64,000 nucleotides of DNA from Escherichia phage muut. Of this stretch, positions 13,352-27,337 are shown piece after piece (positions within the stretch are counted from its first letter, which is position 1; every line of letters starts with the position of its first letter). The position numbers and the translations under genes were made by a program. The stretch lies in sequence record NC_052657.1; one strand, given 5' to 3'. The notes beneath the pieces were generated by a model. The model was given only the letters and a program-made list of their open reading frames with translations, did no database searches and was not told the origin of the DNA.

Positions 13352-13358
13352 GTGATAA

Positions 13359-13384: not shown

Positions 13385-13385
13385 T

Positions 13386-13589
13386 ATGGAGGGTATTATG
13401 GATCATTATTTTGTTTTTAAAGATAAAGTTGATACCGCAGGTGGTCACGTTGCTAAAAATGATCGTGACATTAAAGAAGTATTAGGAGATCTGATTAACA
13501 TTTTAGAACAAAAAGAGTTGCTTTTAGATAAGGATATTGCTAGACTTCTGGGTGTGGGGATAAGTGACATACAAAGATTACCATTCTAA
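13386..13589 (+). CDS. small hypothetical protein
   Basis: 67 aa ORF; alternative ATG at 13398. Confidence 0.4.
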   Translation: MEGIMDHYFVFKDKVDTAGGHVAKNDRDIKEVLGDLINILEQKELLLDKDIARLLGVGISDIQRLPF

Positions 13590-13600
13590 AGGGGAAGAAA

Positions 13601-13756
13601 ATGCTTACAGATGATGAATATAAAGCTATCCAGGAAAAACTAACGGAGCTTGAAATTCTTGCTGTCAATATTAAAGATCAATCACATGCTGGAAAGTTAC
13701 TACAGCAAGAGATCAATAAAATTAAGCAGATGATATTCTTTTGGACGGAGGATTAA
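13601..13756 (+). CDS. small coiled-coil protein (51 aa, not in ORF track)
   Basis: ATG 13601 after GGGGAAG RBS; MLTDDEYKAIQEKLTELEILAVNIKDQSHAGKLLQQEINKIKQMIFFWTED. Confidence 0.4.
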   Translation: MLTDDEYKAIQEKLTELEILAVNIKDQSHAGKLLQQEINKIKQMIFFWTED

Positions 13757-13758
13757 AA

Positions 13759-14415
13759 ATGACTGTTAAGCATATTTCTTTTGATGTATGGAATACTCTT
13801 ATTACTGCTAATCCTTTGTATGCAGAAGAACGCAACAAGGTTATTGCCGAGTATGCCTCTTGTTCTGAGGTAGAAGCAGCTACCGTATATAAAGAGGTAA
13901 AAACTCTCCTGGATTTAAAAGCAGAAAAAGGTATTTGTGGAACATCTAGGCATGCTTGGGAAACACTTTCTGCTCATTTGAACATTGATCTTGATAAGGT
14001 GGATGGGTTAAAAAGAGACTGTTTAGCAATGTTTATAAAACATCCTCCAACATTAAACCCTGAACTTTGCAAGAAGTTGGAAGAGCTAAGTTCAACCTAT
14101 TCTTTGAGTATTAAAAGCAATACTAATTTTGTACCTGGTAGTTTTTTAGCTGTATATTCTGGCTTGACAAAATTACCATTCGACTTTATGCATTTTTCTG
14201 ACGAGTTTTGCTTGTGTAAACCAGATCCTAGGTTTTTTAAACTCTCTTTTGATGAAATGGTAACGTTTGATCTCGCACCAGAGGAGATCTTACACGTTGG
14301 AGATAGTTTGATCTATGATGGAAAAGCTGTTGACATAGGGATGAAGTTCTGTCATATTATTAATCCAGAAGACTTGTTGGCTAAACTTAAAAAAGAGGAA
14401 CTTATTAATGCGTAA
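13759..14415 (+). CDS. HAD-like hydrolase (variant motif I)
   Basis: ISFDVWNTLI (motif I with W in place of the second Asp), HVGDSLIYDGKA (motif IV); ATG 13759 with GGAGGA RBS; 3' end overlaps next gene. Confidence 0.45.
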   Translation: MTVKHISFDVWNTLITANPLYAEERNKVIAEYASCSEVEAATVYKEVKTLLDLKAEKGICGTSRHAWETLSAHLNIDLDKVDGLKRDCLAMFIKHPPTLNPELCKKLEELSSTYSLSIKSNTNFVPGSFLAVYSGLTKLPFDFMHFSDEFCLCKPDPRFFKLSFDEMVTFDLAPEEILHVGDSLIYDGKAVDIGMKFCHIINPEDLLAKLKKEELINA

Positions 14416-15265
14416 TCAAATTCAACATTTTGCTAATACTTTTACTAACCTGAAGGAAGCAAAATTTAACATTGCAGATTATTCCAAGCTAAAGTTTGGT
14501 AGTAACCAGGCAGCAAAAAGAATGGGGCGCATTCTGGCTGAAAGTTTCTTTTCCAAGTATGAAGAACGACTGGTAAATGAAAGTTTTGTTGTTATTCCAT
14601 CTCCATATAACTATGTGAAAAATGCAGCTACAGTGTTATCTGAACATTTTGTAGATCACCTCAACTACCTAATCTCTATCAAAGGAGGTAAAGCAGTGGA
14701 GTGGGATATCGTTCATCGTAAAGTGAGCTATATCAATGATTATGGATTTCTTAGCAAAGAAGATCGTAAGGCTTTGATCGATGGTGACACTTTCTCTATC
14801 AATCGTGATTTCTGGGGTAATAAAACTCTGATTTTCATTGATGATGTTAATATTACAGGAACGCACGAAGAAAAACTTATTGAAATTTTAGACAAAGAAG
14901 GTGTTGAAAACGATACGTTTTTCCTGTACTTTGCAAAGTATGAAGGTACAGAAGCCAATACCGAAGCTGCACTTAACTTCAACTATATCAATAACCTGGC
15001 AGCTTTTATTAAAATGATTAAACAAGAAACTGATGCTAAATGTTTGGTTCGTCCTATTAAGTATCTAATGAGTCAAAGCGAAGTTGATTTTAAAATTGCA
15101 CTTTCACAGCTTCCTTTGTATTATGTAGAACAACTGTTCTTTGGTTGCCTTGCAGAAGGCTACAATAACATTGAAAAATATAAAGAGAACTTTGATTTCC
15201 TACGTCAATTTTTTGAAAGCAACATTATCAACAAATCTAATGTTAAAGGGGATTATTATGTCTAA
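14408..15265 (+). CDS. phosphoribosyltransferase-like protein
   Basis: LIFIDDVNITGTH matches the type I PRTase PRPP-binding loop; overlaps both neighbours. Confidence 0.5.
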   Translation: MRNQIQHFANTFTNLKEAKFNIADYSKLKFGSNQAAKRMGRILAESFFSKYEERLVNESFVVIPSPYNYVKNAATVLSEHFVDHLNYLISIKGGKAVEWDIVHRKVSYINDYGFLSKEDRKALIDGDTFSINRDFWGNKTLIFIDDVNITGTHEEKLIEILDKEGVENDTFFLYFAKYEGTEANTEAALNFNYINNLAAFIKMIKQETDAKCLVRPIKYLMSQSEVDFKIALSQLPLYYVEQLFFGCLAEGYNNIEKYKENFDFLRQFFESNIINKSNVKGDYYV

Positions 15266-15974
15266 TAAAGTAATGACTTTCGGAGATCCTATCACCAATA
15301 TTACAGAAAAAGATTTTGGGCGTGTAGCAACAGATAAAGATGGTGTCTTAAGAATTCGTGTACAAGGTATTACAGCACAGGATGAATATGCTGTGTATGT
15401 TTCAGGTCTTAACTATATTGATGATCGCATTACACAAAACTTTGCACTGATCGGTGGTGTAGAGAAAATGTATTGGGAAGATGAAATTGTAACAAGTTAT
15501 CCGGCAGGTATCATTGAGGTATACGGTGATCTTTTAGCAGCAGCCGAGAGAGGCGATATAGACGCTATAGCACACTGCTGTAACTGTTTTTGCACTATGG
15601 GTAGTGGTATTGCACCAAAAATTAAAAGCAAGTGGCCTGGTGCGTTTAAAGCAGATTGTGCCACTAAACGTGGTGATTATAAAAAATTAGGTACGTTTAC
15701 CAAATATATAGAAAACAATTTGACAATTTATAATTTATATGGACAATATGGTTATAGTCGTCGTGAGGAAGGTAAGCGTGACCTGAATTATGAAGCTATC
15801 TACAATGCGTTAGATAGTATGGGAGACGATGTTGTATCTTCAGGCGGTAAAATTGTAGGTTTACCAATGCTTGGTTGTGGTTTGGCTGGAGGTTCTTGGA
15901 GTATTGTAAAACTTATGATCGAAGAAACTCTAGTAAACAAAGGTTTAAATGTAATTGTTTACAAACTGAAATAA
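15258..15974 (+). CDS. macro domain protein with an N-terminal extension of about 90 aa
   Basis: DAIAHCCNCFCTMGSGIAPKI and VGLPMLGCGLAGGS align with macro-domain blocks (DVIVNAAN..GGGGVDGAIH; FPAISTGVYG); ATG 15258 overlaps upstream stop. Confidence 0.5.
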   Translation: MSNKVMTFGDPITNITEKDFGRVATDKDGVLRIRVQGITAQDEYAVYVSGLNYIDDRITQNFALIGGVEKMYWEDEIVTSYPAGIIEVYGDLLAAAERGDIDAIAHCCNCFCTMGSGIAPKIKSKWPGAFKADCATKRGDYKKLGTFTKYIENNLTIYNLYGQYGYSRREEGKRDLNYEAIYNALDSMGDDVVSSGGKIVGLPMLGCGLAGGSWSIVKLMIEETLVNKGLNVIVYKLK

Positions 15975-15983
15975 GGAGAAAGT

Positions 15984-16190
15984 ATGGCAGGTGTTTTAGC
16001 AGTATTAGGTTGTTTTATTGTTGTGTTTTTGATTGTGTTAATCCCTAGTTGGCTACTGCTTTTAGCATACAACTATATGATTGACATTATCGGCTTAGAC
16101 TGGCATCATGTTCCTGTAACGTTTTGGAGTGTAGTCTGTGTGACGTTCATTCTTGCGGTACTTCGTGGTATCTTTCAATCTAACAAATAA
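15984..16190 (+). CDS. small membrane protein
   Basis: 68 aa, two hydrophobic helices. Confidence 0.5.
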   Translation: MAGVLAVLGCFIVVFLIVLIPSWLLLLAYNYMIDIIGLDWHHVPVTFWSVVCVTFILAVLRGIFQSNK

Positions 16191-16204
16191 GAGAGGATTT
16201 TTAT

Positions 16205-16453
16205 ATGCGTAAAGTAAATGTTGAAGTGCTTGAAAAATTTAGAAACACTCGTGATTGTACTATCGGCAAGGTTTACGAGGCTATTCTCCTTGAAGATGGA
16301 GATCAAGTTCCTGCCCCGTATCACGCCTTTAATGGTCAAATCAGCAAAGTGGAAGGTGGTCTTGCTATTTGCTTTATTGATGACGTAGGTGATGCTGTAG
16401 CTTTCCCTGTCATTAACAAAGAAGATAAACTTAAAATTACAGAACTGAACTAG
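16205..16453 (+). CDS. hypothetical protein
   Basis: 82 aa ORF. Confidence 0.45.
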   Translation: MRKVNVEVLEKFRNTRDCTIGKVYEAILLEDGDQVPAPYHAFNGQISKVEGGLAICFIDDVGDAVAFPVINKEDKLKITELN

Positions 16454-16483
16454 TTGACTTTCTTTAAAAACAGTTTATAGTAT
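16454..16483 (+). promoter_or_regulatory. promoter candidate (TTGACTTT -35, TAGTAT -10) upstream of terC-like gene
   Basis: TTGACT 16454-16459, 18 nt spacer, TAGTAT 16478-16483. Confidence 0.35.
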
Positions 16484-16493
16484 AAGACATAGA

Positions 16494-16512
16494 GCGGAGG
16501 ATTGTCCTCCGC
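16494..16512 (+). promoter_or_regulatory. 5' leader hairpin that includes an anti-SD-like CCUCC
   Basis: GCGGAGGA-TTG-TCCTCCGC, no U tract, 18 nt before ATG 16531. Confidence 0.3.
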
Positions 16513-16530
16513 ATTAAAGAGGAGAAAAGA

Positions 16531-17508
16531 ATGCAACTGGGTTTCCCAATTATTGATGTGGTTGTTTTAGTGGGTATTTTAGTCTTGTCGATTTGTATTG
16601 ACTTCTTTGGACACAGAGAAAACAAAGAAATTTCATTTAAATCTGCAATTGGCTGGTCAATTTTCTGGATTGGGGTATCATTAGCCTACTATGGTTTTGT
16701 ATACTTCCAACACGGTGCTGATTTTGCGAGCTTGTTCTTGAGTGGGTATGTGTTGGAGAAATCTCTTTCTGTAGATAACTTAGTAGTATTTGTAGCAGTA
16801 TTCGCAAGTTTTGGTATTAAAAGCACACACTTGCAGCACAAGATTCTACTTTGGGGTATTGCAGGTGCGATTGTCTTCCGAGGTGTGTTTGTAGCAGTAG
16901 GCACTTACTTGTTGAGTTTGGGCTGGTATGTTAATATCTTCTTCGGTGCTGTCATCCTTTTCTGTGCGGCTAAAATGGTATTCGCTGGAGATAATGATGC
17001 AGAAGTTGATTACTCTAAACACTGGGCTACTCGCATTGTTCGTAAGCTGTTCCCTGTATCTGATCAGATGGATGGTGAGAAGTTCTTCACAATCAAAAAT
17101 GGTGTTCGTGTAGCAACTCCGGCTCTGGTTTGTGTGTTTGTAATGGAAATGGTTGACGTAATCTTTGCAGTAGACTCTGTTCCAGCAGTAATTGCAGTGA
17201 CACAAGAACCTCTGCTTGTATTTTCTTCAATGCTGTGTGCAATTTTAGGTCTACGTGCTCTGTTCTTTGTACTTAGTGTTGCACTGAAATATTTGGTTCA
17301 TCTGGAGAAAGCAGTTATCGTAGTCCTGGTGTTTGTGGGTGTAAAACTGATGTATCATCCGTTTGCAGAAACTCTGCACGCAAAAGTGAGTTTCCTACCA
17401 GCACACATTGATCCGACGATCAGTATGTATATTGTGTTAGGTACTCTTGGGTTGGGTGTTATTGCAAGTTTAATCTTCCCTGAAAAAGAAGACCAGACTG
17501 TTGCTTAA
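16531..17508 (+). CDS. terC: TerC family integral membrane protein
   Basis: Multi-pass membrane protein with both TerC signature repeats: EKSLSVDNLVVFV and EMVDVIFAVDSVPAVIAVT. Confidence 0.8.
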   Translation: MQLGFPIIDVVVLVGILVLSICIDFFGHRENKEISFKSAIGWSIFWIGVSLAYYGFVYFQHGADFASLFLSGYVLEKSLSVDNLVVFVAVFASFGIKSTHLQHKILLWGIAGAIVFRGVFVAVGTYLLSLGWYVNIFFGAVILFCAAKMVFAGDNDAEVDYSKHWATRIVRKLFPVSDQMDGEKFFTIKNGVRVATPALVCVFVMEMVDVIFAVDSVPAVIAVTQEPLLVFSSMLCAILGLRALFFVLSVALKYLVHLEKAVIVVLVFVGVKLMYHPFAETLHAKVSFLPAHIDPTISMYIVLGTLGLGVIASLIFPEKEDQTVA

Positions 17509-17513
17509 TTCAT

Positions 17514-17536
17514 TAAGCCCCTTCGGGGGCTTTGTT
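17514..17536 (+). terminator. rho-independent terminator (UUCG tetraloop)
   Basis: AAGCCCC-TTCG-GGGGCTT then TGTT. Confidence 0.65.
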
Positions 17537-17547
17537 GAGGTGATCTG

Positions 17548-17754
17548 ATGGTGGTTTTACGTGTTCTTTGGATTCTGTTTGAAAATATTTGTTTTGCTCT
17601 AGGGTTGTTTTGTTTGATTTTTATCTTGACAACATATATTGATAACCATACAATTACTATCAACAGGAACGGAGAACAGATGTATTGTTTCTCTAGGGAT
17701 TTTAAAAATTGTGTTGAGACTTTAAATGAGAGGGTTACAAATGAAAAACATTAA
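17548..17754 (+). CDS. small membrane protein
   Basis: 68 aa, hydrophobic N-terminus. Confidence 0.35.
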   Translation: MVVLRVLWILFENICFALGLFCLIFILTTYIDNHTITINRNGEQMYCFSRDFKNCVETLNERVTNEKH

Positions 17755-18331
17755 ATCTTTTATTGTTGCAGTTGTTTTAGGTAGTGTATTGCTGGTAGGT
17801 TGTGATGATTCTGAAAATGTACAAAATCAACGTTACCAGCAAACACCAAATCAGATGGTAGATGAGCAATATGTAAATCAACCTGCACCTCAAGTTGTTC
17901 AAGCAGCACCTGCACAACCTTCAACAGTTGTTGTTCAAGGAGGCGGCAGTGGTTCTTCTGGCGTAGGTGAGTTCGCTACAGGTATGCTTCTTGGTCATAT
18001 GTTGAGTGGTAATAGTGGCGGTGGTGGTTATAGAGATGGCGGTAGCAATACAACAATTATCAATAACAACGCTGCTCCTACAACTAATAGTAAAGCATAT
18101 ACAACACAAAAGCATAGTTTTTATGATAAACAAGGAAATACATATACAACCACTAAACAAAACACAATTAAGCAGCAAAGTGTACAAACGTATTCACGCC
18201 CATCAACAACAAAAGTGAATAGTAATTACTCTGCTCGTAAGTCTTACTCAAGCCCTATTAGCTCTTATAGTAAGTCTTCGAAAAGTTATTCTTCGTCGAA
18301 ACGTAGTTTTAGTAGCTCACGTCGTCGTTAA
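17741..18331 (+). CDS. lipoprotein with glycine-zipper segment and Ser/Tyr-rich tail
   Basis: Signal peptide with lipobox LLVGC; GEFATGMLLGHMLSGNSGGGG; tail SYSSPISSYSKSSKSYSSSKRSFSSSRRR. Confidence 0.6.
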   Translation: MKNIKSFIVAVVLGSVLLVGCDDSENVQNQRYQQTPNQMVDEQYVNQPAPQVVQAAPAQPSTVVVQGGGSGSSGVGEFATGMLLGHMLSGNSGGGGYRDGGSNTTIINNNAAPTTNSKAYTTQKHSFYDKQGNTYTTTKQNTIKQQSVQTYSRPSTTKVNSNYSARKSYSSPISSYSKSSKSYSSSKRSFSSSRRR

Positions 18332-18366
18332 TAATTTAATACAGATTAAATAAGAAGGAGAAACAG

Positions 18367-19218
18367 ATGAAACTAGAAGTTGGTAAAGTATATCGCCTGG
18401 AAGGTTGGATCTTTAATCAAGAAATTCTTGAGAAGAATAAAGATGGTTTTGAGTTTGTTGGTACTACCAAGGAAAGTATGCACAATGACGAATACTGTAA
18501 ATTCGTTGGTAAAAATACAGGTCAAGAACAATTTTGCTTTAAGAGCGCAATCGGTGATTATGCTTCTGTAATGCCAACACCAGAAAAAACTCCGAAGCAA
18601 TATACTGTCTTTGGTGTAAAACTTGAAGAACTTGTAGAACACCCACGTTTTGAAGAGTTCAAGGTTGCTGCAATGCGCAAGCATTCTGAAATTAAAATAC
18701 ATAATTTGTTTGATTTAGAAGATCGGTTTGATATCTTTATGTATGATCGCAGGGAAAAGCATTTTGATGCAACGACTTCAAAATTTGCTGCAACAGAGGA
18801 TATTAAAATCCTTGATGTTGATACCTTTCTTCACAATGTATCGTTTGTATTCATTCCTAAATACAAAAAACGTAGTGATCATAAACGTGTGAAAGGAACT
18901 CCTCGTAAAAAACGTACTGTAAACAAAGCAACTTTGCACTTCACTTCTGGTGATAAGTATACTCTCAAAGGGTTTGAAAGTGTTTTGTATGATGCTGGAA
19001 CGGGTAATATCAAGTTTATCATTAAGGCAACCTACAAAGGTACGGTATTGCACGAAGAGGCTGTTACACTACCTGTATTCGATATCTCTCGTGTTGAGGT
19101 ACGGGGTGTTAAAGAGTCCTTCGATCTGGATTTCTTAACCACTAATGCTACTGGTTATGTTAATCTGGAAGCAGATGGAGCCTTTATTACTACAAATTAT
19201 TTAGATATGTTTGTTTAA
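18367..19218 (+). CDS. hypothetical protein
   Basis: 283 aa ORF, AGGAGA RBS. Confidence 0.55.
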   Translation: MKLEVGKVYRLEGWIFNQEILEKNKDGFEFVGTTKESMHNDEYCKFVGKNTGQEQFCFKSAIGDYASVMPTPEKTPKQYTVFGVKLEELVEHPRFEEFKVAAMRKHSEIKIHNLFDLEDRFDIFMYDRREKHFDATTSKFAATEDIKILDVDTFLHNVSFVFIPKYKKRSDHKRVKGTPRKKRTVNKATLHFTSGDKYTLKGFESVLYDAGTGNIKFIIKATYKGTVLHEEAVTLPVFDISRVEVRGVKESFDLDFLTTNATGYVNLEADGAFITTNYLDMFV

Positions 19219-19286
19219 TACTTAATTTGTGTTATGATGGTGGTACAGAGGTATCACCATCTACTAAAGAATATGGAGGAAATTGA

Positions 19287-20390
19287 ATGTCCAGTCCTTT
19301 TATCAGTGCCGTAAAAAGCAAACCGTCTGAAATGAGTGTATTCACGGCAACAACAGAAAAAAGTAAGTCTTTGTTTGCTCCAAGTGCTATGGATGCAAGC
19401 CCTGTATATGCCCCTGCTGTTGCACGACCTGTACAAATGCTGCCTCCAATGTCTCGTGAAGAGATTGAACAAGTTGGTGCTGATGCAGGACTTACTCTTC
19501 GTAACCTTAATGCTGAAGTGCTTAAACACCAGCGTTCATCTCAGGGGGATGAAATGAGTGAACGTTTAACTGCACTTATTAAGCAAGCAAAGCAACTTGA
19601 TCCTAACTCTATTAAACAATCTAAAGGCTTAGGTAAACTAGTTAAGAAAGTATTAGGTATGAAAGAAGATTTGTTTGGTGAATTTGACACCATCAATAAT
19701 CGTATTGAAGGTTTGGTAAAGACACTACAAACAGACTTGAAAAAAGAAGAAGATTCTTTACGATATCTGCAACGTTTAGAAGAGGCTATTGCAAAATATG
19801 CTCTTAGCTTAAACAGGGATATAGAGCTTCTAACAGCTACTTATGAAAAAGAAGAAGTTCGCCTTAATACACTACCTGAAAATGAAGTAGAAGAGCGTCA
19901 ACGTACTCGTGATACTATGGATCTGCTTGAAATTCGTATTGCAGACCTGAAAGCCTTGCGTTTACTGTGTGTTCAGATGGGGCCACGTGTACAAAGTATG
20001 CAGAAAGTATCTGCAAGTTTGATGCGATCAGCCCGTAATATTGTGAATAATGTTATCCCTGCTTACTCTGCAAACTTTTCTATGTATATTGAAAGTCTAC
20101 GCCAGAAGAAAGCAGCCGATACACAGAACAATGTGCTGAATGAATTTAATGCTGCTATTGCAATGGGTAGTGATCTGGCTGCACAAAACCAAATTGAAGC
20201 TACACAACTTGCTAATCGTCAAGTATTGGATATTGAAACATTACGTCGCGATCAAGAAAACTTAGTTAAAATGTTGGAAGAAACTAACCGAATCAACACT
20301 GAAGCCCGTGCTGCGCGTATTGATTACATTCAAGAAGTGCAATCTCTTGAAGATGGTATGATTCAAACTGTTAAACGTGGTCTACTTTAA
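19287..20390 (+). CDS. TelA/KlaA-like toxic anion resistance family protein
   Basis: 367 aa coiled-coil protein; C-terminal LDIETLRRDQENLVKMLEETNRINTEARAARIDYIQEVQ resembles the TelA block. Confidence 0.5.
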   Translation: MSSPFISAVKSKPSEMSVFTATTEKSKSLFAPSAMDASPVYAPAVARPVQMLPPMSREEIEQVGADAGLTLRNLNAEVLKHQRSSQGDEMSERLTALIKQAKQLDPNSIKQSKGLGKLVKKVLGMKEDLFGEFDTINNRIEGLVKTLQTDLKKEEDSLRYLQRLEEAIAKYALSLNRDIELLTATYEKEEVRLNTLPENEVEERQRTRDTMDLLEIRIADLKALRLLCVQMGPRVQSMQKVSASLMRSARNIVNNVIPAYSANFSMYIESLRQKKAADTQNNVLNEFNAAIAMGSDLAAQNQIEATQLANRQVLDIETLRRDQENLVKMLEETNRINTEARAARIDYIQEVQSLEDGMIQTVKRGLL

Positions 20391-20403
20391 GGAGAAATAT
20401 ATT

Positions 20404-20610
20404 ATGAATATTAAAATTTACAAACTGTCTGGTTCTATGATTGCTGTTCAGTATGACAATGAAGATCGTTATGTTCTCCTCCAGGATGCTTGGTTAGATG
20501 ATCCTAATGTATTCACTGTCCTGCGAGAACTACGCTCTGTCTATACCTATTCTTCTAAAGATGGTTTTGATAGTTCAACGATGGAATTGGTAAAAGAGGA
20601 GAATGTGTAA
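20404..20610 (+). CDS. hypothetical protein
   Basis: In-frame ATG 20404 after AAGGAGA RBS. Confidence 0.45.
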   Translation: MNIKIYKLSGSMIAVQYDNEDRYVLLQDAWLDDPNVFTVLRELRSVYTYSSKDGFDSSTMELVKEENV

Positions 20611-20810
20611 TGAGTAAAGATATTCACTTAACTCGTGAAGAATTGCAAACCATTATGGAAGATGCTTTCATTGATGGTTGGAAACAAGGTCAAGAATCAG
20701 ATTGGTATGATGCCGAAGATTTTTTGTATTATCATATGACTGCACCTGTAGACGAGCAAACACACTCTGAAACAACTTTGGCTTTAATTGATCTTAAGGC
20801 TGGTGTATAA
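20610..20810 (+). CDS. hypothetical acidic protein
   Basis: 66 aa ORF. Confidence 0.45.
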   Translation: MSKDIHLTREELQTIMEDAFIDGWKQGQESDWYDAEDFLYYHMTAPVDEQTHSETTLALIDLKAGV

Positions 20811-21373
20811 TGGGGTGTTTTAGTTTCTTGTGCAAAGAGTCTGGTAATGCTGCTCTTTCTACCTCTTTCGATGGCTCTCCTTGCTACCTATTTCTTTTGA
20901 AAGGTGGTAAGGTTGTCGAAGAGATGTATGGGAATTATGATAGCTATGGTAGTGTTTTCTCTAACGAAGAAGATAAACATGGCAATCGTAAAAGATTCAA
21001 GTGGTCTATGCCTTGGGAAGAAGTTTGTAATTTGATGTTCTCTTCCGATCTTGGAGATGGGATTGCTCTGGTATTAGAAGAACACTTTACAGGTGAGATC
21101 CCAACAGAAAGATCTGAAGAAGACCCTAACCAGGGTTGGGGTGATGGAGAAGAAGATCCAGATTGCTTCTTCAGCACTGAAAATAATAAATTTAAACGTG
21201 TTGACAATCCTTACCACAAAGTGCATAATACTTGCATTGAGACAGAAGAAGACTCAAAGCTAGAAATTGAAGATGATTTAGTTGTAACTATCTCTTTAAA
21301 CGATTTGCAAAAAATCACTAGAGAGGCTTTCTATTTAGGCTTGAGAGCAGGTAAAGGAGAAGACAGTGCTTAA
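20810..21373 (+). CDS. hypothetical protein
   Basis: 187 aa ORF. Confidence 0.5.
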   Translation: MGCFSFLCKESGNAALSTSFDGSPCYLFLLKGGKVVEEMYGNYDSYGSVFSNEEDKHGNRKRFKWSMPWEEVCNLMFSSDLGDGIALVLEEHFTGEIPTERSEEDPNQGWGDGEEDPDCFFSTENNKFKRVDNPYHKVHNTCIETEEDSKLEIEDDLVVTISLNDLQKITREAFYLGLRAGKGEDSA

Positions 21374-21635
21374 ATTTAATATCAAAGACGACAAATCAGA
21401 TGAACCTAAATGTTTTGGAGAACTTGACACAGGTGATACATTCGTATATTATGTTGCCTATCGAGATGCTGGTTTAGATACGTTCAGAAACTTAGTGTTT
21501 ATTAAGGTTAATACAAACCAAGCAATGTGTCTTAACGGTTCACAAAGAGGTCAACTTAACTGTATTTTATATGATACAGAAGTGGTAGAAGTGGATTTAG
21601 AAGTTACTAACATTACAGTCAGAAAGGAGAAATAA
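21366..21635 (+). CDS. hypothetical protein
   Basis: 89 aa ORF. Confidence 0.45.
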   Translation: MLKFNIKDDKSDEPKCFGELDTGDTFVYYVAYRDAGLDTFRNLVFIKVNTNQAMCLNGSQRGQLNCILYDTEVVEVDLEVTNITVRKEK

Positions 21636-21636
21636 T

Positions 21637-22431
21637 ATGTCCAATAAAATCAGTCTTAAAAAACGTCAAGAAACTCTTACTGTATCCCTGCGTAAGAAAA
21701 AGATTAACGATGTTGTTCTTCGTGTAGGTAGCGCCTTAGATATTTCGGGTAGTATGTGTGAGCTGTATCGTGATGGCACTGTTAGCGATTTTGTAGGTAA
21801 ACTGCTGCCGTTTGGTATGAAGTTTGATGATAATGCACAGATTGACATGTGGGCTTTCAATAGTTCTTCTTTTGAACTGCCTCCTGCAACGGCTGATGTG
21901 TATGATGATTATGTCGGCTCTTGCATGTCTAATGTTTGCATCAACGGTGGTACTGCTTATGCTCCAGTAATGCAAGAGATCTATGATACATACTTCGGTA
22001 GTGTACCTATGAAAAATATTACACGCGAAGTCGTTGAGTATGAAGAAGTTCCGGCTAAAGGTTTCCTTGCTAAACTAACTGGTAAAAAAGAACTTGTAGA
22101 AGTAACACGTACTGTTGTAGAACAGGTTGTAGATACTGATGCACAAGTTGATCGTACTCCTGCAATGATTTTCTTCCAAACTGACGGGGAGAACATGGAT
22201 ACTTCAGCAGTACGTAGCTTACTGAACAAACACCGCAATACGCCTGTTTACTGGTTTATGGTTGGTGTAGGTAATGCAAACTTTAAATTCCTGAAAGACT
22301 TGGCAAAAGAATACGATAATGTTGATTTTATCGGTATTGCAGATTTGTCCTTGTCTGACGAAGAACTTTACGATAAACTGCTATCTGAAGAGTTTGGTGA
22401 GTGGGTTAAAAAATTTGGAGCAAAAGCGTAA
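21637..22431 (+). CDS. vWA domain protein (TerY-like) with TerD-like N-terminal tag
   Basis: MIDAS DISGSM, GGTAYAP, FFQTDGE; N-terminus ISLKK..LTVSLRK parallels the TerD start. Confidence 0.55.
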   Translation: MSNKISLKKRQETLTVSLRKKKINDVVLRVGSALDISGSMCELYRDGTVSDFVGKLLPFGMKFDDNAQIDMWAFNSSSFELPPATADVYDDYVGSCMSNVCINGGTAYAPVMQEIYDTYFGSVPMKNITREVVEYEEVPAKGFLAKLTGKKELVEVTRTVVEQVVDTDAQVDRTPAMIFFQTDGENMDTSAVRSLLNKHRNTPVYWFMVGVGNANFKFLKDLAKEYDNVDFIGIADLSLSDEELYDKLLSEEFGEWVKKFGAKA

Positions 22432-22438
22432 AAAACGC

Positions 22439-22466
22439 TTGACTTTGTAGAAAAGATTAGTAAAAT
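22439..22466 (+). promoter_or_regulatory. promoter candidate (TTGACTTT -35, TAAAAT -10) upstream of terD-like gene
   Basis: TTGACT 22439-22444, 16 nt spacer, TAAAAT 22461-22466. Confidence 0.4.
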
Positions 22467-22503
22467 AGACAACGTAAATTAACAACAAAGGAGATAATAA
22501 ATT

Positions 22504-23100
22504 ATGACTCAGAAAATTTCCCTGAAAAAAGGTTCTAGCGAAAAAGTTTCTCTGAAAAAGATTGCACCAGCACTGAAACGCATTCGTCTGGAATTCTCTT
22601 GGAAATCTAACGAAAAACTGGATCTGGATGTTAGTGCTCTGATTTGCCGACACAATGCATCTGGTCTGCCGGAACTGTTGTCTCCTCGTCACCTGGTGTG
22701 CTACGCGCAGAAATTTGATCCTGAACGTTCTACTTTTGCAGGTGAAGATGTTCGTGATGGTGTAGGACAGATGGAGCAGATTGATGTTACACTGGATAAT
22801 ATCTCTGCTGAAGCACAGGAAATTGCATTCGTAATTACTATTGATGACGAAACGGGTAAGAAACGCCTTGGTCACGCTACCGAAGGTTTCCTTAAAATCT
22901 TCGATGATGAACGTAATGTTGAACTGCTGGACTTTGACTTCTTGGCTCCAGAACTTGCAGGTAACACCATTTGCCACGTTGCCTCCCTGGTGCGAGAAGA
23001 TAGCGAATGGAAACTGAAAGCATATGGTGTGGGTAAAGCTGGGCTTGACATTTACGATGTAGTTAAAGCGTTTGGCGCTGGCGACGATTGGTTCGAGTAA
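22504..23100 (+). CDS. terD: TerD family protein
   Basis: ISLKKGSSEKVSLKK, LDLDVSALI, EIAFVITID, EWKLKAYGVGKAGL align with TerD blocks (VSLSKGGNVSLSK, FDLDASAFL, KIIFVVTIH, EWKFRAVGQGYAGGL). Confidence 0.8.
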   Translation: MTQKISLKKGSSEKVSLKKIAPALKRIRLEFSWKSNEKLDLDVSALICRHNASGLPELLSPRHLVCYAQKFDPERSTFAGEDVRDGVGQMEQIDVTLDNISAEAQEIAFVITIDDETGKKRLGHATEGFLKIFDDERNVELLDFDFLAPELAGNTICHVASLVREDSEWKLKAYGVGKAGLDIYDVVKAFGAGDDWFE

Positions 23101-23107
23101 TAAATCA

Positions 23108-23132
23108 TAGCGCCCTTCGGGGCGCATATTTT
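23108..23132 (+). terminator. rho-independent terminator (UUCG tetraloop)
   Basis: GCGCCC-TTCG-GGGCGC then ATATTTT. Confidence 0.65.
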
Positions 23133-23152
23133 AAATAAAAGAGGAGAAAACA

Positions 23153-23755
23153 ATGGGTATTACTTTAGAAGGTCAAAAACTTATTCGTAGCGGCAATTTT
23201 CTTGTGGATGTTGACAACAATCAAGATTATGCTGTAGAAGTTAGTGATGTACTGTTTGATGCTTTGCAGTCTGGTTTCAATTTTGAAGTTTATGAAGTAA
23301 TCCGTGGAACTAAACTCAGAGAAACCCTTGGATCAACTAGTGATGTTTATTCTGCGATCTGGCAATATTTCGGGTTAATGGATGGTAAGACATACCTTAC
23401 TGATAGTTATTCTGAAGATGTTGTTTATCTTGATATGGAAGAGTTTCGTCGTCTGTTCAAAAGTGAAGAAAATGAAGAAGAGGGTGAACTTTTTGAAGGA
23501 ATTATTCTCGAAGGTAATGTTGAAATTGTGTACAAAGCAGGAAAAACATTCCACCTACGCGAAAACGGTAAAGCGAAAGTTGATTTTGTAAACAAGACAG
23601 TGACAACCGAACATAATTATCTTAAAGATGGTCAACCAGCTTTTGAACGTGTAAAAATTAAATTTAAAGTGTTGTCTGCACTAGTTACGGATCAAGAACG
23701 TATTGATTTTGTAGAAGATGGTGTAGTAACTCATACGAAGGTTTACAATATCTAA
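23153..23755 (+). CDS. hypothetical protein
   Basis: 200 aa ORF, GAGGAGA RBS. Confidence 0.55.
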   Translation: MGITLEGQKLIRSGNFLVDVDNNQDYAVEVSDVLFDALQSGFNFEVYEVIRGTKLRETLGSTSDVYSAIWQYFGLMDGKTYLTDSYSEDVVYLDMEEFRRLFKSEENEEEGELFEGIILEGNVEIVYKAGKTFHLRENGKAKVDFVNKTVTTEHNYLKDGQPAFERVKIKFKVLSALVTDQERIDFVEDGVVTHTKVYNI

Positions 23756-23786
23756 CAGAGTGTAAGAGGGGGATAATCCTCCTCCA

Positions 23787-23815
23787 CTTGCAAAACAGCC
23801 TCTTCTGTGTTACAA
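23787..23815 (+). promoter_or_regulatory. promoter candidate (TTGCAA-17-TACAAT)
   Basis: TTGCAA 23787-23792, 17 nt spacer, TACAAT 23810-23815. Confidence 0.4.
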
Positions 23816-23847
23816 TAAAAGTTCGTTTAACAAAATAGGAGGCAAGT

Positions 23848-24357
23848 TTGTCAATAAAAACCTTTGTCGCAATTGCGTTACTATCCTTAACTGCTTTTAC
23901 ATTTACACCTGTTGTGGCGCAAGCCGAAGCTGCAAACGTAAAAACTGCTAAAGTAGTTCACAAGTGTACAAAGCGTGATAGTAAAGAAAATCTATTAGCT
24001 TGTGCAATCTATGCAGAAAGTCGTAATCAAGGAAAGCGCGGTATGTCTGCTGTTGGTAATGTAGTATTGAATAGGGCTAGAGATTCATATTTCCCTGATA
24101 CTATAAAAGAAGTTTTGTTTCAAAAAGGACAATTCTCTTACACAAAGACATTCAACGTTATGGAACGTGATAAGTGGAAGGAAGCTAAGGCTATAGCAGA
24201 ACGTCTACTTTATCTCGATACGCATTTTCCAGAATTACGAATTGCATTAGATATTACAAAAGGAGCATTATACTTTAAAAAATCTACAATAAGAGCACAC
24301 TGGGAAAAAGATATGGTTCTAGTGTACCGCTACAAAGAACATCAATTCTATCGCTAA
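23848..24357 (+). CDS. secreted cell wall hydrolase (SleB/Hydrolase_2 family), possible endolysin
   Basis: TTG start 7 nt after GGAGG; signal peptide ending AQA; CAIYAESRNQG...AVGNVVLNRA...FPDTIKEVLFQKGQFSYT. Confidence 0.6.
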   Translation: MSIKTFVAIALLSLTAFTFTPVVAQAEAANVKTAKVVHKCTKRDSKENLLACAIYAESRNQGKRGMSAVGNVVLNRARDSYFPDTIKEVLFQKGQFSYTKTFNVMERDKWKEAKAIAERLLYLDTHFPELRIALDITKGALYFKKSTIRAHWEKDMVLVYRYKEHQFYR

Positions 24358-25105: not shown

Positions 25106-25669
25106 ATGATATTTCACATAACTCCCTATCTTTCTGGAGATATTGGAAAAGGTATCAATGACACAATAAGTGTCTTACCAGAAGATAGTTGGATTTGCCT
25201 AAGAGACATTGATACAATGTTTCTTCTTCCAGAACAACCTGCTTGGCTGGAATCAATTGTCCGTTCAAATCCTGATTTTGATGTTCTTGGTGCATCTTGT
25301 AACAGATTGGGATCAACATATCAATTATTTAATAATGAAAGAAGTGAAGATCCGAATATATTACACCACATTGAGATTGCAAAAAGAGCACATCTAGAAT
25401 GGGGAAACTCAATAGAGGAAGTACCTACAGATGCTATCTTAGCAGGATTCTTTCTTCTCTTTCGTAAGAGTCTGTGGAATGAAATTCCTTTTGAGGAAAG
25501 ATCAATACAGTTTGATATAATTTTCTCTAAAGCATTGCACGCTAACAATAAAAGGCTAGGTTTACTACGTGGGTTATATTTATTTCACACATACCGTTTA
25601 GGTAATGATGATCCTAGAAAAGCTGTTTCACACCTTTTACATTGTCAAGACATGAATAAAATTATTTAA
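25106..25669 (+). CDS. glycosyltransferase (GT-A-like, DxD)
   Basis: RDIDTMF DxD motif, GFFLLFRKSLW. Confidence 0.5.
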   Translation: MIFHITPYLSGDIGKGINDTISVLPEDSWICLRDIDTMFLLPEQPAWLESIVRSNPDFDVLGASCNRLGSTYQLFNNERSEDPNILHHIEIAKRAHLEWGNSIEEVPTDAILAGFFLLFRKSLWNEIPFEERSIQFDIIFSKALHANNKRLGLLRGLYLFHTYRLGNDDPRKAVSHLLHCQDMNKII

Positions 25670-25678
25670 GGAGTTATT

Positions 25679-26365
25679 TTGGAAAATACAAAAATTGGTG
25701 TTGGTGTTATTACTGTAGGTAAGCGTCCTCTTAAAGATTATCTTGTGACTGATCCTAGTGCTACTTTTGTTGTACAGTATGATCGGGAACGAAAAGGTGT
25801 TGCATATGCTCGTAATGAACTGATGAAAAAGTTTTATGATGAAGGATATGATTACTGGTTTATTTTTGATGATGATTGCTATCCTGTTGTTCAAGGTTGG
25901 GAAACATATTTTGTAAAACAGGCGAAGGAAAATGGTTGGGATTTCTTTGGTATGCCTGAATACTTTAAAGATAAAGTAAAAGGTATTGAAGGGGAAGTGG
26001 TTATTTGGGAGCTAGGAATGTGCCAGTTTGGTATGTATTCCCGTGCAGTTATTGAGAAAGCTGGCTATTTCCGCTCATACACCCACGGCTATGGGTATGA
26101 AGATGCAGAGTGGATTCATCGCGTCCCACTGGCAGGTTTGAACCGAGGTATTCAAGGCGTACCATGTCCTATTCGAATTATGGCGTTTATCCATCCTGAT
26201 GATGTATTTGGAGACAATCCTTTACCTTTTGCGAATCTGTCAAAAGAAGAGAAAGAACAGGGGATTGGTGTAAACTGGGAACAATATAAACAATCCCTGG
26301 AGGATCTTCGCAATGGTAAAACTTTTATCTCTTATGAGGAGGCTCAAAAATATGGTAAATCCTAA
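25679..26365 (+). CDS. glycosyltransferase family 2-like
   Basis: FIFDDDCYP DxD motif, YGYEDAEW. Confidence 0.55.
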   Translation: MENTKIGVGVITVGKRPLKDYLVTDPSATFVVQYDRERKGVAYARNELMKKFYDEGYDYWFIFDDDCYPVVQGWETYFVKQAKENGWDFFGMPEYFKDKVKGIEGEVVIWELGMCQFGMYSRAVIEKAGYFRSYTHGYGYEDAEWIHRVPLAGLNRGIQGVPCPIRIMAFIHPDDVFGDNPLPFANLSKEEKEQGIGVNWEQYKQSLEDLRNGKTFISYEEAQKYGKS

Positions 26366-27326: not shown

Positions 27327-27337
27327 TAAGGAGCTAT

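What the first reader, a model, noticed from the sequence alone, without database searches (positions are those of the whole stretch)
16454..23132. Ter-type stress-response module (TerC, TelA-like, TerY-like vWA, TerD) carried by a phage
Four proteins with signatures of the bacterial tellurite-resistance (Ter) families sit within 7 kb on one strand. TerC (16531-17508) shows both SVDN and AVDS repeats. A coiled-coil TelA-like protein is at 19287-20390. A vWA protein with an intact MIDAS motif is at 21637-22431. A clear TerD homolog is at 22504-23100. The vWA and TerD proteins both open with an ISLKK-type N-terminus, and both the terC-like and terD-like genes are preceded by TTGACTTT promoter-like boxes and followed by tetraloop terminators. 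Ter systems are described as chromosomal or plasmid-borne membrane-linked stress and phage-resistance systems; a lytic-type phage carrying a multi-gene Ter set suggests host-takeover or anti-defence use.
Basis: partly seen in the sequence, partly recalled or inferred. Interest (0 to 1): 0.85.

Follow-up and report, generated by a model that had tools for sequence, protein, structure and literature searches.

The report
Known Ter stress module in phi92-like phage
A virulent E. coli phage of the phi92 group really does carry four bacterial "tellurite-resistance" (Ter) genes plus a linked pair of nucleoside-making enzymes. This gene set is conserved across the phage subfamily and has been annotated and discussed in print for years, although nobody has tested what it does.

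Summary
All four ORFs exist at the stated coordinates and pass Pfam's curated thresholds:
- TerC: 1.2e-38; it also passes the NCBIfam TerC/Alx model.
- TelA: 5e-34.
- vWA: 1.2e-38, MIDAS motif intact.
- TerD: 5e-28.

The window is a phi92-like myovirus (Justusliebigvirus, 99.7% identical to phage Antha). The segment is absent from 5,426 complete E. coli genomes.

Two corrections:
- The vWA protein is the TerF-C-terminal type, not TerY.
- The module starts about 2.7 kb further upstream. A HAD hydrolase (13759-14415) overlaps a PRTase_3 phosphoribosyltransferase (14408-15265). This pair is adjacent in every related phage locus I fetched and often lies next to Ter genes there.

The Ter and PRTase genes are under strong purifying selection (0-2 nonsynonymous against 9-21 synonymous differences versus phi92). 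About 130 Stephanstirmvirinae records retain them.

The finding is not new. phi92's GenBank record carries these annotations. Papers on ZCKP1, phiKp34 and phiPsa374 and the Aravind-group jumbo-phage review describe the same TerC/TerD/TerF-vWA/TelA set, with or without PRTase+HAD, in virulent phages, and propose superinfection exclusion.

The function is untested. My best guess is an early-expressed inner-membrane ion and envelope module that protects the infected cell from further phage or colicin attack. Interest is low to moderate.

The parts
13759..14415 (+). HAD-superfamily hydrolase. Nucleophile Asp9, motif II Ser120, motif III Lys154 and motif IV Asp182/Asp187 are invariant; the Asp+2 position is Trp. 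It is the first gene of the conserved HAD-PRTase pair.
   Evidence: Pfam PF00702 4e-06, just above cut-off. NCBIfam HAD-IA/REG-2-like hits are all below their curated cut-offs. Invariant motifs in a 6-phage alignment. It lies directly upstream of PRTase_3 in 22/22 IMG/VR loci and in L002-L007.
14408..15265 (+). PRTase_3 (ComF-like phosphoribosyltransferase) with an intact PRPP loop (D145-D146-V-x-I-T-G-x-H-E). It overlaps the HAD stop codon by 8 nt.
   Evidence: Pfam PF15610 1.1e-41, 143.5 bits against cut-off 28.7. Invariant columns in the alignment. 2 nonsynonymous against 20 synonymous differences versus phi92. Found next to TerC/TerD/vWA in unrelated phage contigs.
15258..15974 (+). Macro-domain protein (TARG1/SCO6735/DarG type) with an extra ~85-residue N-terminal region. 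It overlaps the PRTase stop codon by 8 nt. Membership of the module is uncertain, because it is adjacent only within Stephanstirmvirinae.
   Evidence: Pfam Macro 1.5e-06. NCBIfam/PADLOC DarG macro domain 8e-13 and 3.5e-13. PDB 5e3b 5e-16, OARD1 4e-10. Synteny table.
15984..16190 (+). Small protein of 68 aa with two hydrophobic segments, conserved in Phapecoctavirus (60% identity). Role unknown.
16454..16481 (+). Sigma-70-type promoter-like site before terC (TTGACT, 16 nt spacer, TATAGT).
   Evidence: An equivalent TTGACA site is present in ZCKP1. The site is not statistically distinguishable from chance on its own.
16494..16512 (+). 5'-UTR hairpin (GCGGAGGA-TTG-TCCTCCGC) between the promoter-like site and the terC ribosome-binding site.
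   Evidence: Fold -16.1 kcal/mol, z = -2.4. ZCKP1 has GCGGGGGG...CCCCCGC at the same place, so the stem is kept despite differences on both arms.
16531..17508 (+). TerC/Alx-family integral membrane protein (325 aa), with the SVDN (residue 80) and AVDS (residue 213) repeat motifs.
   Evidence: 47% identical over 99% of its length to IncHI2-type plasmid TerC. 2 nonsynonymous against 13 synonymous differences versus phi92.
17517..17530 (+). UUCG-tetraloop GC hairpin after terC, followed by TTTGTTG.
   Evidence: The terminator scan did not list it.
17741..18331 (+). Predicted lipoprotein (signal peptide, lipobox LVGC, Asp at +2) with a Ser/Gln/Thr/Gly/Asn-rich tail. It is syntenic between terC and telA across the subfamily. 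Membership is uncertain.
   Evidence: SignalP note in the phi92 record. 35-51% identity in related genera.
19287..20390 (+). TelA-family protein (367 aa), predicted all-alpha with very long helices.
   Evidence: Pfam PF05816 5e-34. AF2 secondary structure shows helices 117-195, 201-309 and 317-366, but model confidence is low (pLDDT 60.5). 2 nonsynonymous against 18 synonymous differences versus phi92.
21637..22431 (+). Stand-alone vWA protein of the TerF-C-terminal type with a complete MIDAS motif (D35, S37, S39, T106, D183). It has an insertion relative to plasmid homologues.
   Evidence: 37% identical to the vWA of a TelA-vWA-DUF475-TerD plasmid operon. 1 nonsynonymous against 21 synonymous differences versus phi92.
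22439..22466 (+). Sigma-70-type promoter-like site before terD (TTGACT, 16 nt spacer, TAAAAT).
22504..23100 (+). TerD-domain protein (198 aa). It aligns end to end with K. pneumoniae TerD.
   Evidence: Pfam 5e-28. PDB 2kxt 8.6e-15, residues 5-180 against 3-178. 0 nonsynonymous against 9 synonymous differences versus phi92.
23110..23125 (+). Terminator-like UUCG-tetraloop hairpin after terD.
18367..19218 (+). Intervening 283-aa ORF with no family hit. Poorly conserved (dN/dS 0.28; only a fragment is alignable in ZCKP1). Probably not a Ter component.
20404..21635 (+). Four intervening ORFs (68, 66, 187 and 89 aa). The 187-aa one belongs to a widespread phage family that is not linked to Ter genes elsewhere.

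Best explanation
What it is (confidence about 0.95). This is the conserved accessory Ter module of phi92-like (Stephanstirmvirinae) virulent myoviruses. It has two parts:
- a translationally coupled HAD hydrolase + PRTase_3 pair;
- the four-family Ter 'hub': a TerC/Alx membrane protein, TelA, a TerF-type vWA protein and TerD.

Unrelated small phage ORFs are interspersed among these genes.

How it most likely works (inferred, confidence about 0.4).
- The genes are read by the host RNA polymerase from sigma-70-type promoters, within the same + strand block as the nucleotide-metabolism and replication genes.
- TerC inserts in the inner membrane and moves divalent cations (Mn2+, Ca2+ or Zn2+), as its characterised relatives do.
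- TerD, which keeps one of its two Ca2+ sites, and the MIDAS-bearing vWA protein act as metal-dependent soluble partners.
- The long-helix TelA protein acts at the cytoplasmic face of the membrane.
- The PRTase + HAD pair makes a nucleoside-like ligand from PRPP: the PRTase builds a nucleotide and the HAD enzyme removes the phosphate. This ligand feeds or tunes the system.
- The net effect is a change in the envelope and ion state that keeps the infected cell productive and refractory to further attack during the latent period. That attack would be injection by superinfecting phages or pore-forming colicins, matching the phage-inhibition and colicin-resistance phenotypes of plasmid ter determinants.
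For: Shown here:
- Family membership is established, with catalytic or metal motifs intact.
- Purifying selection is strong on exactly these genes: nonsynonymous/synonymous differences versus phi92 are TerD 0/9, vWA 1/21, PRTase 2/20, TelA 2/18 and TerC 2/13. The intervening ORFs give dN/dS 0.28-0.9.
- TelA, TerD, TerC and PRTase are each found in about 130 Stephanstirmvirinae records. Synteny is conserved in Phapecoctavirus.
- HAD lies directly upstream of PRTase_3 in 22/22 IMG/VR loci. A Ter protein lies within 10 kb in 8 of the 17 that are not phi92-like, and in two more metagenomic phage contigs. By contrast, TerD is found in only 142 of 50,697 phage records overall.
- The same four families form a compact operon on a conjugative plasmid.
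- The promoter-like site and 5' hairpin before terC are conserved across genera.

From the literature:
- Ter determinants give phage inhibition and colicin resistance (Whelan 1995, as cited).
- TerC/Alx relatives are implicated in Mn and Zn handling (paper titles and abstracts listed).
- TerD binds Ca2+.
- The superinfection-exclusion proposal and the role of PRTase/HAD in Ter systems are in PMC7824862 and PMC6141743.
Against: - No experiment on any phage-borne Ter gene was found. PMC9796965 states that the function is unknown.
- TerB, TerA, TerZ and TerE of the plasmid operon that gives the phage-inhibition phenotype were not detected among the ORFs scanned at 9874-24357.
- PADLOC defence models do not match any Ter protein here.
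- In the alignment to K. pneumoniae TerD, position D88 of the second Ca2+ site is Met and G82 is Arg.
- The two sub-modules occur apart. Rhizobium phages are prominent among the PRTase hits but not among the listed organism counts for TelA, TerD or TerC. Only one Pseudomonas record is listed for PRTase_3, and it is Phapecoctavirus-like, so the Pseudomonas phiPsa374-group phages appear to have the Ter four without it.
- Phage JLBYU50 lacks HAD+PRTase and still grows on K-12.
- The promoter assignments are consensus matches that do not exceed chance.
Confidence: 0.45

Rival explanations
1. Metal and ion housekeeping for the phage's own benefit. The module only adjusts Mn2+/Ca2+/Zn2+ levels or relieves envelope stress, so that phage metallo-enzymes and the infected cell keep working. 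It has no exclusion or defence role.
For: - TerC falls in the TerC/Alx 'metal homeostasis' subfamily, above the NCBIfam cut-off.
- Alx is reported as a Mn2+ exporter, and K. pneumoniae TerC as contributing to Zn resistance (titles).
- TerD binds Ca2+.
- The module sits directly after the class III ribonucleotide reductase genes NrdD and NrdG and among nucleotide-metabolism genes.
- A ferritin-like gene lies about 5 kb from the HAD-PRTase pair in CcrColossus.
Against: - It does not explain why TelA, vWA and TerD travel with TerC on plasmids and phages.
- It does not explain why a PRTase+HAD pair is linked to them.
- The Mn-sensing riboswitch that controls cellular alx/terC genes is absent: there were no Rfam hits in the window.
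Confidence: 0.25
2. Anti-defence or host takeover. The phage proteins interfere with a host Ter or other membrane-linked defence, for example as decoys or by pre-empting a signal.
For: - Ter systems are described as anti-phage.
- A neighbouring macro domain of the DarG/TARG1 type could reverse defensive ADP-ribosylation.
- A PRTase/HAD pair could in principle make or destroy a signalling nucleotide.
Against: - All catalytic and metal-binding motifs are intact, not degenerate as expected for decoys.
- The phage proteins are only 31-47% identical to the enterobacterial plasmid Ter proteins.
- These phages were isolated and propagated on K-12 hosts (host fields). That K-12 lacks a ter operon is from my own knowledge, not tested here.
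- The same four-family set occurs on a conjugative plasmid, where counter-defence against Ter makes little sense.
Confidence: 0.15
3. The HAD + PRTase_3 pair is an independent nucleotide-metabolism or nucleoside-modification cassette that merely sits beside the Ter genes. Only 16531-23100 is 'Ter'.
For: - The pair occurs with no Ter gene within 10 kb in 9 of 17 diverse viral loci, and in Rhizobium phages among DHFR, cytidylyltransferase and PurA-like genes.
- phiPsa374-type phages appear to have the four Ter genes without it.
- JLBYU50 has lost the pair but kept all Ter genes.
- In the window it directly follows nucleotide-metabolism genes.
Against: - Ter genes are rare in phages: TerD is in 142 of 50,697 records. 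Yet they lie within 10 kb of the pair in about half of the diverse loci, in different gene orders.
- The Aravind-group review lists PRTases and HAD phosphoesterases as the signal-biosynthesis branch of the Ter system.
Confidence: 0.3
4. Functionless cargo recently picked up from a host or plasmid.
For: terC and terD each look like self-contained promoter-to-terminator cassettes. terC alleles have been exchanged between genera.
Against: - dN/dS is 0-0.05.
- The genes are present throughout the subfamily, at 65-81% amino-acid identity between genera.
- There is no DNA match in E. coli genomes, and only 31-47% identity to plasmid homologues.
Confidence: 0.02

Closest known systems
Escherichia phage phi92 gp172-gp187 and the other Justusliebigvirus genomes
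   Same: It is the same module, gene for gene. Proteins are 92-100% identical and DNA is 97-99.7% identical. The phi92 record already names gp182 'putative membrane bound tellurium resistance protein', gp178 'putative stress / toxic anion resistance protein', gp172 'putative stress protein', gp186 'putative orotate phosphoribosyltransferase' and gp187 'hydrolase'.
   Different: Only point differences and mosaic best matches: Antha is closest for the Ter part and ESCO32 for the upstream part.
Ter gene sets of other virulent phages: Phapecoctavirus (ZCKP1, phAPEC8), Klebsiella phiKp34, Pseudomonas phiPsa374, Caulobacter/Brevundimonas jumbo phages, Acinetobacter ME3
   Same: The same four families (TerC, TerD, TerF-type vWA, TelA). 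Some also carry PRTase + HAD. All are in lytic phages and all are discussed in print. ZCKP1 is fully syntenic, at 65-81% amino-acid identity.
   Different: Gene order and the intervening ORFs differ outside the subfamily. phiPsa374-type phages appear to lack PRTase_3. The macro domain is adjacent only in Stephanstirmvirinae.
Plasmid and chromosomal ter operon terZABCDEF (IncHI2 R478 type, widespread in Klebsiella, Escherichia, Salmonella and Enterobacter plasmids)
   Same: It shares the TerC (47% identity), TerD-domain (about 31%) and TerF-type vWA families. It is a mobile-element-borne, membrane-linked system.
   Different: No TerB and no TerA/TerZ/TerE paralogues were detected here. The vWA is a stand-alone protein rather than fused behind a TerD domain. 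TelA is present here but is not a ter-operon gene. Tellurite, phage-inhibition and colicin phenotypes are shown only for the plasmid system.
Compact TelA-vWA-DUF475-TerD operon on the Caballeronia grimmiae conjugative plasmid p2 (and Burkholderia plasmids)
   Same: Four adjacent genes annotated as toxic anion resistance protein (TelA), VWA, DUF475 membrane protein and TerD. The vWA is 37% identical, the best plasmid match.
   Different: The membrane protein there is annotated DUF475, not TerC. That DUF475 is TerC-related is from my own knowledge. No PRTase or HAD is annotated nearby. The genes are contiguous rather than interrupted by phage ORFs.
E. coli Alx and other TerC/Alx-family metal exporters
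   Same: The phage TerC passes the TerC/Alx subfamily model and has both SVDN and AVDS motifs.
   Different: There is no yybP-ykoY-type riboswitch or any other Rfam element upstream. Instead there is a sigma-70-like site and a simple 5' hairpin. Transport activity is untested.

Membership tests
TerC family (Pfam PF03741; NCBIfam TIGR03718 TerC/Alx) | Profile match above the curated cut-offs | tested here: met
   133.1 bits against 27.8; 322.8 bits against 246.4
TerC family (Pfam PF03741; NCBIfam TIGR03718 TerC/Alx) | Polytopic membrane protein with two repeated (S/A)VD(N/S) motifs | tested here: met
   Multiple hydrophobic segments; SVDN at residue 80 and AVDS at residue 213
TerC family (Pfam PF03741; NCBIfam TIGR03718 TerC/Alx) | Divalent-cation transport activity | not testable with these tools
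   Needs transport or metal-content assays
TerD domain (PF02342) | Full-length profile match and alignment to a solved TerD structure | tested here: met
   98.2 bits against 25.3; 2kxt 8.6e-15 over residues 5-180
TerD domain (PF02342) | Two Ca2+ sites (K. pneumoniae TerD residues 40, 41, 42, 78, 79, 89 and 29, 82, 84, 88, as quoted in PMC8779313) | tested here: inconclusive
   In the alignment, site 1 is kept (D-L-D; D78->E; N79->D; E89 kept). In site 2, D88->M and G82->R. Binding itself was not tested.
TelA (PF05816) | Profile match above cut-off over nearly the whole model | tested here: met
   118.3 bits against 30; model positions 13-330 of 332
TelA (PF05816) | All-helical, coiled-coil-like architecture | tested here: met
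   Secondary structure is helical throughout, with helices of 79 and 109 residues. The 3D model is low confidence (pLDDT 60.5), so no fold search was run.
vWA-TerF-like (PF10138) | Profile match above cut-off | tested here: met
   133.8 bits against 29.4
vWA-TerF-like (PF10138) | Complete MIDAS motif (DxSxS ... T ... D) | tested here: met
   D35, S37, S39, T106, D183
   PF00092 scores 22.8 bits, below its 23.8 cut-off, while PF10138 scores 133.8 bits. There is no PADLOC hit, including no TerY-P hit.
PRTase_3 (PF15610), the Ter-associated phosphoribosyltransferase | Profile match above cut-off and an intact PRPP-binding loop | tested here: met
   143.5 bits against 28.7; DDVxITGxHE is invariant
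PRTase_3 (PF15610), the Ter-associated phosphoribosyltransferase | Genomic linkage to Ter genes | tested here: met
   Ter genes lie within 10 kb in 8 of 17 diverse viral loci plus L004 and L005, and in all Stephanstirmvirinae loci. The linkage is frequent but not obligatory.
Complete ter operon (terZABCDEF) or a tellurite-resistance determinant | Presence of TerB and the TerA/TerZ/TerE paralogues | tested here: not met
   No such Pfam hits among the ORFs scanned at 9874-24357 at E <= 0.1 or 0.01. Only one TerD-domain gene is present.
Complete ter operon (terZABCDEF) or a tellurite-resistance determinant | Confers tellurite resistance, phage inhibition or colicin resistance | not testable with these tools
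   Needs phenotypic assays
Known anti-phage defence systems (PADLOC-DB v2) | Match of any Ter-module protein to a defence-system model | tested here: not met
   Only the neighbouring macro domain matches, to DarG at 3.5e-13

The most novel reading that the evidence does not exclude
The HAD + PRTase_3 pair and the four Ter proteins form a single phage-encoded signal-and-effector circuit. A nucleoside-like molecule made from PRPP is sensed by TerD and the vWA protein. It switches TerC/TelA-dependent changes in inner-membrane ion flux that block DNA injection by competing phages and killing by colicins. If true, this would give the first mechanistic function for the widespread Ter 'hub', in a genetically tractable E. 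coli phage that already has a natural HAD-PRTase deletion variant (JLBYU50).
Probability: 0.2. Interest if true: 0.65.

Novelty: already known. Interest (0 to 1): 0.3.

Why it matters
The Ter hub (TerC, TerD, TelA, vWA) is found across bacteria, plasmids and phages, yet its physiological function is still unclear. A lytic E. coli phage keeps these genes under strong purifying selection across about 130 sequenced relatives. This shows that the genes pay their way within a single infection cycle.

phi92-like phages are a convenient system for testing what Ter proteins do. They grow on K-12, the module is compact, and a natural variant lacks the PRTase/HAD branch.

As a genome-scan finding, however, it adds little. 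The genes are already annotated in GenBank, and several papers have already raised both the presence of Ter genes in virulent phages and the superinfection-exclusion idea.

Tried and rejected
- TelA structure. The model was built from a 17-sequence alignment and came out at low confidence (pLDDT 60.5, pTM 0.36). I ran no fold search on it, so nothing beyond 'long helices' can be said.
- Riboswitch control of terC, as in cellular alx/terC genes. There were no Rfam hits anywhere in the window.
- Defence-system models. PADLOC gives nothing for the Ter proteins.
- TTGACTTT as a phage-specific promoter box. 7 copies against 5.6 expected, and 4 of the 7 lie inside long ORFs. It is not a distinctive motif.
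- An 'envelope-themed neighbourhood' argument based on the downstream glycosyltransferases. Their Pfam matches are weak, and one leans towards a DNA-modification-associated glycosyltransferase. I dropped the argument.
- Host-chromosome or prophage origin. No megablast match in 5,426 complete E. coli genomes.
- Papers and libraries not available. The primary Ter comparative-genomics paper (Anantharaman et al. 2012) and Frampton et al. 2014 are not held in the library, so I cite them only through papers that quote them. The afdb50 fold library was not available.

Full report
**1. What is in the sequence**

Each matches its Pfam family far above the curated cut-off:

| ORF | Family | E-value |
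|---|---|---|
| 16531-17508 | TerC | 1.2e-38 |
| 19287-20390 | TelA | 5.1e-34 |
| 21637-22431 | vWA-TerF-like | 1.2e-38 |
| 22504-23100 | TerD | 5.1e-28 |

- TerC also passes the NCBIfam TerC/Alx subfamily model, at 322.8 bits against a 246.4 cut-off. It is polytopic and carries SVDN at residue 80 and AVDS at residue 213.
- The vWA protein has a complete MIDAS motif: D35, S37, S39, T106 and D183.
- TerD aligns end to end with the solved K. pneumoniae TerD structure (2kxt, 8.6e-15).
- The shared ISLKK opening is real. An alignment with plasmid and other-phage homologues shows the N-terminal IxLxK...xLxK pattern in those vWA and TerD proteins too, so it is not a peculiarity of this window.

**2. 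Regulatory signals**

- TTGACT boxes with good -10 hexamers at 16-nt spacing lie in the intergenic gaps before terC (16454) and terD (22439).
- UUCG-tetraloop GC hairpins follow terC (17517-17530) and terD (23110-23125).
- These sites do not stand out statistically. There are 43 promoter-like sites against 39 +/- 7 in shuffles. There are 7 TTGACTTT octamers against 5.6 +/- 2.3 expected, and 4 of the 7 lie inside long ORFs.
- Independent support for the terC site comes from Klebsiella phage ZCKP1, in a different genus. It has TTGACA plus a 5'-UTR hairpin at the same position, and the stem is kept despite differences on both arms (GCGGAGGA/TCCTCCGC against GCGGGGGG/CCCCCGC).
- No Rfam family, and so no Mn-sensing yybP-ykoY riboswitch of the kind found before cellular terC/alx genes, matches anywhere in the window.

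**3. Where the window comes from**

- The segment is 99.7% identical to Escherichia phage Antha. 53 phage records of the phi92 group (Justusliebigvirus, Stephanstirmvirinae) cover it at 95-99.7% identity.
- The rest of the window holds ribonucleotide reductases, a helicase-primase and a DNA polymerase, followed by a long minus-strand block of large ORFs.
- Nothing in 5,426 complete E. coli genomes matches 13700-23132.
- The refutation condition 'host chromosomal DNA' is therefore not met.

**4. The module is larger than reported**

Directly upstream lie three genes that overlap one another by 8 nt:
- a HAD hydrolase (13759-14415);
- a PRTase_3/ComF-like phosphoribosyltransferase (14408-15265; PF15610, 1.1e-41);
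- a macro-domain protein (15258-15974).

Catalytic residues are invariant in a six-phage alignment. These are the HAD motifs and the PRPP loop DDVxITGxHE of the PRTase.

Evidence on linkage between the pair and the Ter genes:
- I anchored a search of IMG/VR on the PRTase. HAD lies immediately upstream in 22 of 22 loci.
- Among the 17 loci that are not phi92-like, 8 have TerC, TelA, vWA or TerD within 10 kb by tblastn.
- Two further metagenomic phage contigs show TerC-TerD-vWA-HAD-PRTase and vWA-TerD-TerD...HAD-PRTase, by precomputed Pfam hits.
- Ter genes are rare in phages overall: TerD is in 142 of 50,697 records. This linkage is far above background.
- It matches the published description of PRTases and HAD phosphoesterases as the nucleoside-signal branch of Ter systems (PMC7824862).
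- The linkage is not obligatory. Rhizobium phages carry the pair among nucleotide-metabolism genes with no Ter gene nearby. phiPsa374-type phages appear to have the Ter four without PRTase_3. Phage JLBYU50 has deleted HAD+PRTase but keeps all Ter genes.

The macro domain is adjacent only in Stephanstirmvirinae. It is of the TARG1/SCO6735/DarG type. I treat it as a neighbour, possibly with its own role.

**5. What lies between the Ter genes**

None of these ORFs has a Pfam hit above its curated cut-off:
- a predicted lipoprotein (17741-18331; lipobox LVGC, Asp at +2);
- a 283-aa ORF;
- four small ORFs.

The 187-aa ORF (20810-21373) is as conserved between genera as the Ter proteins (74%), so I tested it as a candidate hidden component. 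Its N-terminal ~140 residues define a large, very conserved phage family. That family sits in the early or replication regions of unrelated phages with no Ter genes nearby. Its confident model (pLDDT 86.6) has no structural relative in the PDB or BFVD. It is an interloper, and interesting in its own right.

**6. Evidence that the genes are functional**

Nonsynonymous against synonymous differences versus phi92:

| Gene | Nonsynonymous / synonymous |
|---|---|
| TerD | 0 / 9 |
| vWA | 1 / 21 |
| PRTase | 2 / 20 |
| TelA | 2 / 18 |
| TerC | 2 / 13 |

- These counts give dN/dS of 0-0.05. The intervening ORFs u283, u89 and u200 give 0.28, 0.90 and 0.46.
- TelA, TerD, TerC and PRTase are each found in about 130 Stephanstirmvirinae records.
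- Gene order is conserved in Phapecoctavirus at 65-81% amino-acid identity.
- The proteins are only distantly related to the enterobacterial plasmid ter operon: TerC 47%, TerD about 31%, vWA at most 37%. The phage TelA clade is separated from cellular TelA by a wide gap. This is an old phage lineage of Ter genes, not a recent capture.
- terC behaves as a cassette. Some Phapecoctavirus genomes carry a 94-96% Justusliebigvirus-type allele while their neighbouring genes are 65-80% identical.

**7. How it probably works**

Shown here: family membership, intact motifs, selection, conservation and linkage. Everything below is inferred.

- The best plasmid match of the vWA protein lies in a contiguous operon on a conjugative plasmid, annotated TelA, VWA, DUF475 membrane protein and TerD. 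These components therefore travel together on mobile elements.
- Characterised relatives point to divalent cations at the inner membrane. Alx is reported as a Mn2+ exporter and K. pneumoniae TerC as contributing to Zn resistance (titles). TerD binds Ca2+.
- In the phage TerD, the first Ca2+ site is retained. In the second, D88 is Met and G82 is Arg (alignment, site numbering).
- The only phenotypes known for multi-gene ter determinants, apart from tellurite resistance, are phage inhibition and colicin resistance (as cited).

My best explanation is therefore an early-expressed module that resets envelope and ion state. It would keep the infected cell productive and refractory to superinfecting phages and colicins, with the PRTase/HAD product acting as a ligand or signal.

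I put about 0.4-0.45 on this. The rivals:
- Pure metal or stress housekeeping: 0.25.
- Anti-defence: 0.15.
- An independent role for the HAD-PRTase pair: 0.3. This is not exclusive of the others.
- Functionless cargo: effectively excluded.

Points against the best explanation:
- TerB and the TerA/Z/E paralogues of the operon that gives the phage-inhibition phenotype were not detected.
- No defence-system model matches any Ter protein.
- No experiment on a phage Ter gene was found. One paper states the function is unknown.

**8. Comparison with what is known, and novelty**

- The module is, gene for gene, that of phi92. Its GenBank record already labels gp182 a tellurium-resistance membrane protein, gp178 a toxic-anion-resistance protein, gp172 a stress protein, gp186 a phosphoribosyltransferase and gp187 a hydrolase.
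- A 2015 metagenomic study listed phi92 gp172, gp173 and gp178 as TerD or tellurite-resistance proteins.
- The phiKp34 paper (2021) names terC, the terF vWA domain, terD and telA, and calls them a functional hub also reported in virulent phages.
- The phiPsa374 paper (2022) lists the same four and says their role is unknown.
- The Aravind-group jumbo-phage review (2021) describes phage Ter operons with and without PRTase/HAD, mentions 'certain other related smaller tailed phages', and proposes competition with superinfecting phages.

What my analysis adds is modest:
- the corrected vWA subtype;
- the upstream extension and its linkage statistics;
- the selection contrast between Ter genes and interlopers;
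- the terC cassette exchange;
- the partial loss of the TerD Ca2+ site.

**Verdict**

The finding is already known, and interest is 0.3.

Noticed in passing
[not shown]
   Followed up: partly
window 4755-7568: The UvrD-type helicase (937 aa) carries an intein: Intein_splicing and Hint hits fall at residues ~267-613. The orthologue in phage JLBYU50 is only 578 aa, so the intein is present in some relatives and absent in others.
   Followed up: no
window 15258-15974: Macro-domain protein of the TARG1/SCO6735/DarG type with an extra ~85-residue N-terminal region, translationally coupled to the PRTase. It could reverse ADP-ribosylation by host DarT-like toxins. The Phapecoctavirus orthologue is annotated at only 157 aa and aligns to the macro part alone.
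   Followed up: partly
window 16531-17508; L015 11628; phages ECO340P1, ESCO37, phiWec190: Some Phapecoctavirus genomes carry a TerC that is 94-96% identical to the Justusliebigvirus allele, while their flanking genes are 65-80% identical. This points to recombinational exchange of the promoter-terC-terminator cassette between genera.
   Followed up: partly
window 16494-16512; L007 12592-12615: The 5'-UTR hairpin between the terC promoter-like site and the ribosome-binding site is conserved in ZCKP1, with differences on both arms that keep the stem. It may be an mRNA-stabilising or translational element.
   Followed up: partly
window 17741-18331: Predicted lipoprotein (lipobox LVGC, Asp at +2, which in E. 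coli favours inner-membrane retention) with a Ser/Gln/Thr/Gly/Asn-rich tail. It is syntenic between terC and telA across the subfamily and is a candidate exclusion or envelope protein.
   Followed up: no
L001 (phage JLBYU50) 10199-11522, against window 12191-15974: A natural deletion fuses the AAA-ATPase region to the macro gene and removes HAD and PRTase_3. The phage was isolated on K-12 MG1655, so the pair is dispensable in the laboratory.
   Followed up: partly
window 12191-13351: AAA-type ATPase (386 aa) with weak, sub-threshold STAND/AAA hits, followed by a GAAA-tetraloop terminator-like hairpin (13358-13379). It is present in Justusliebigvirus and in two related IMG/VR loci, but was not found in ZCKP1.
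   Followed up: no
window 25106-28282: Four consecutive glycosyltransferase-like genes with only weak Pfam support. One gives a sub-threshold hit to the TET-associated glycosyltransferase family, which raises the possibility of DNA-base rather than surface-sugar modification.
   Followed up: no
(GenBank MG0656xx records): Several records labelled 'Campylobacter phage' (A150, A145, C3, A110a, B15) are 98-100% identical to E. coli phi92-like or Phapecoctavirus phages. The host labels are probably wrong, or the samples were contaminated.
   Followed up: no
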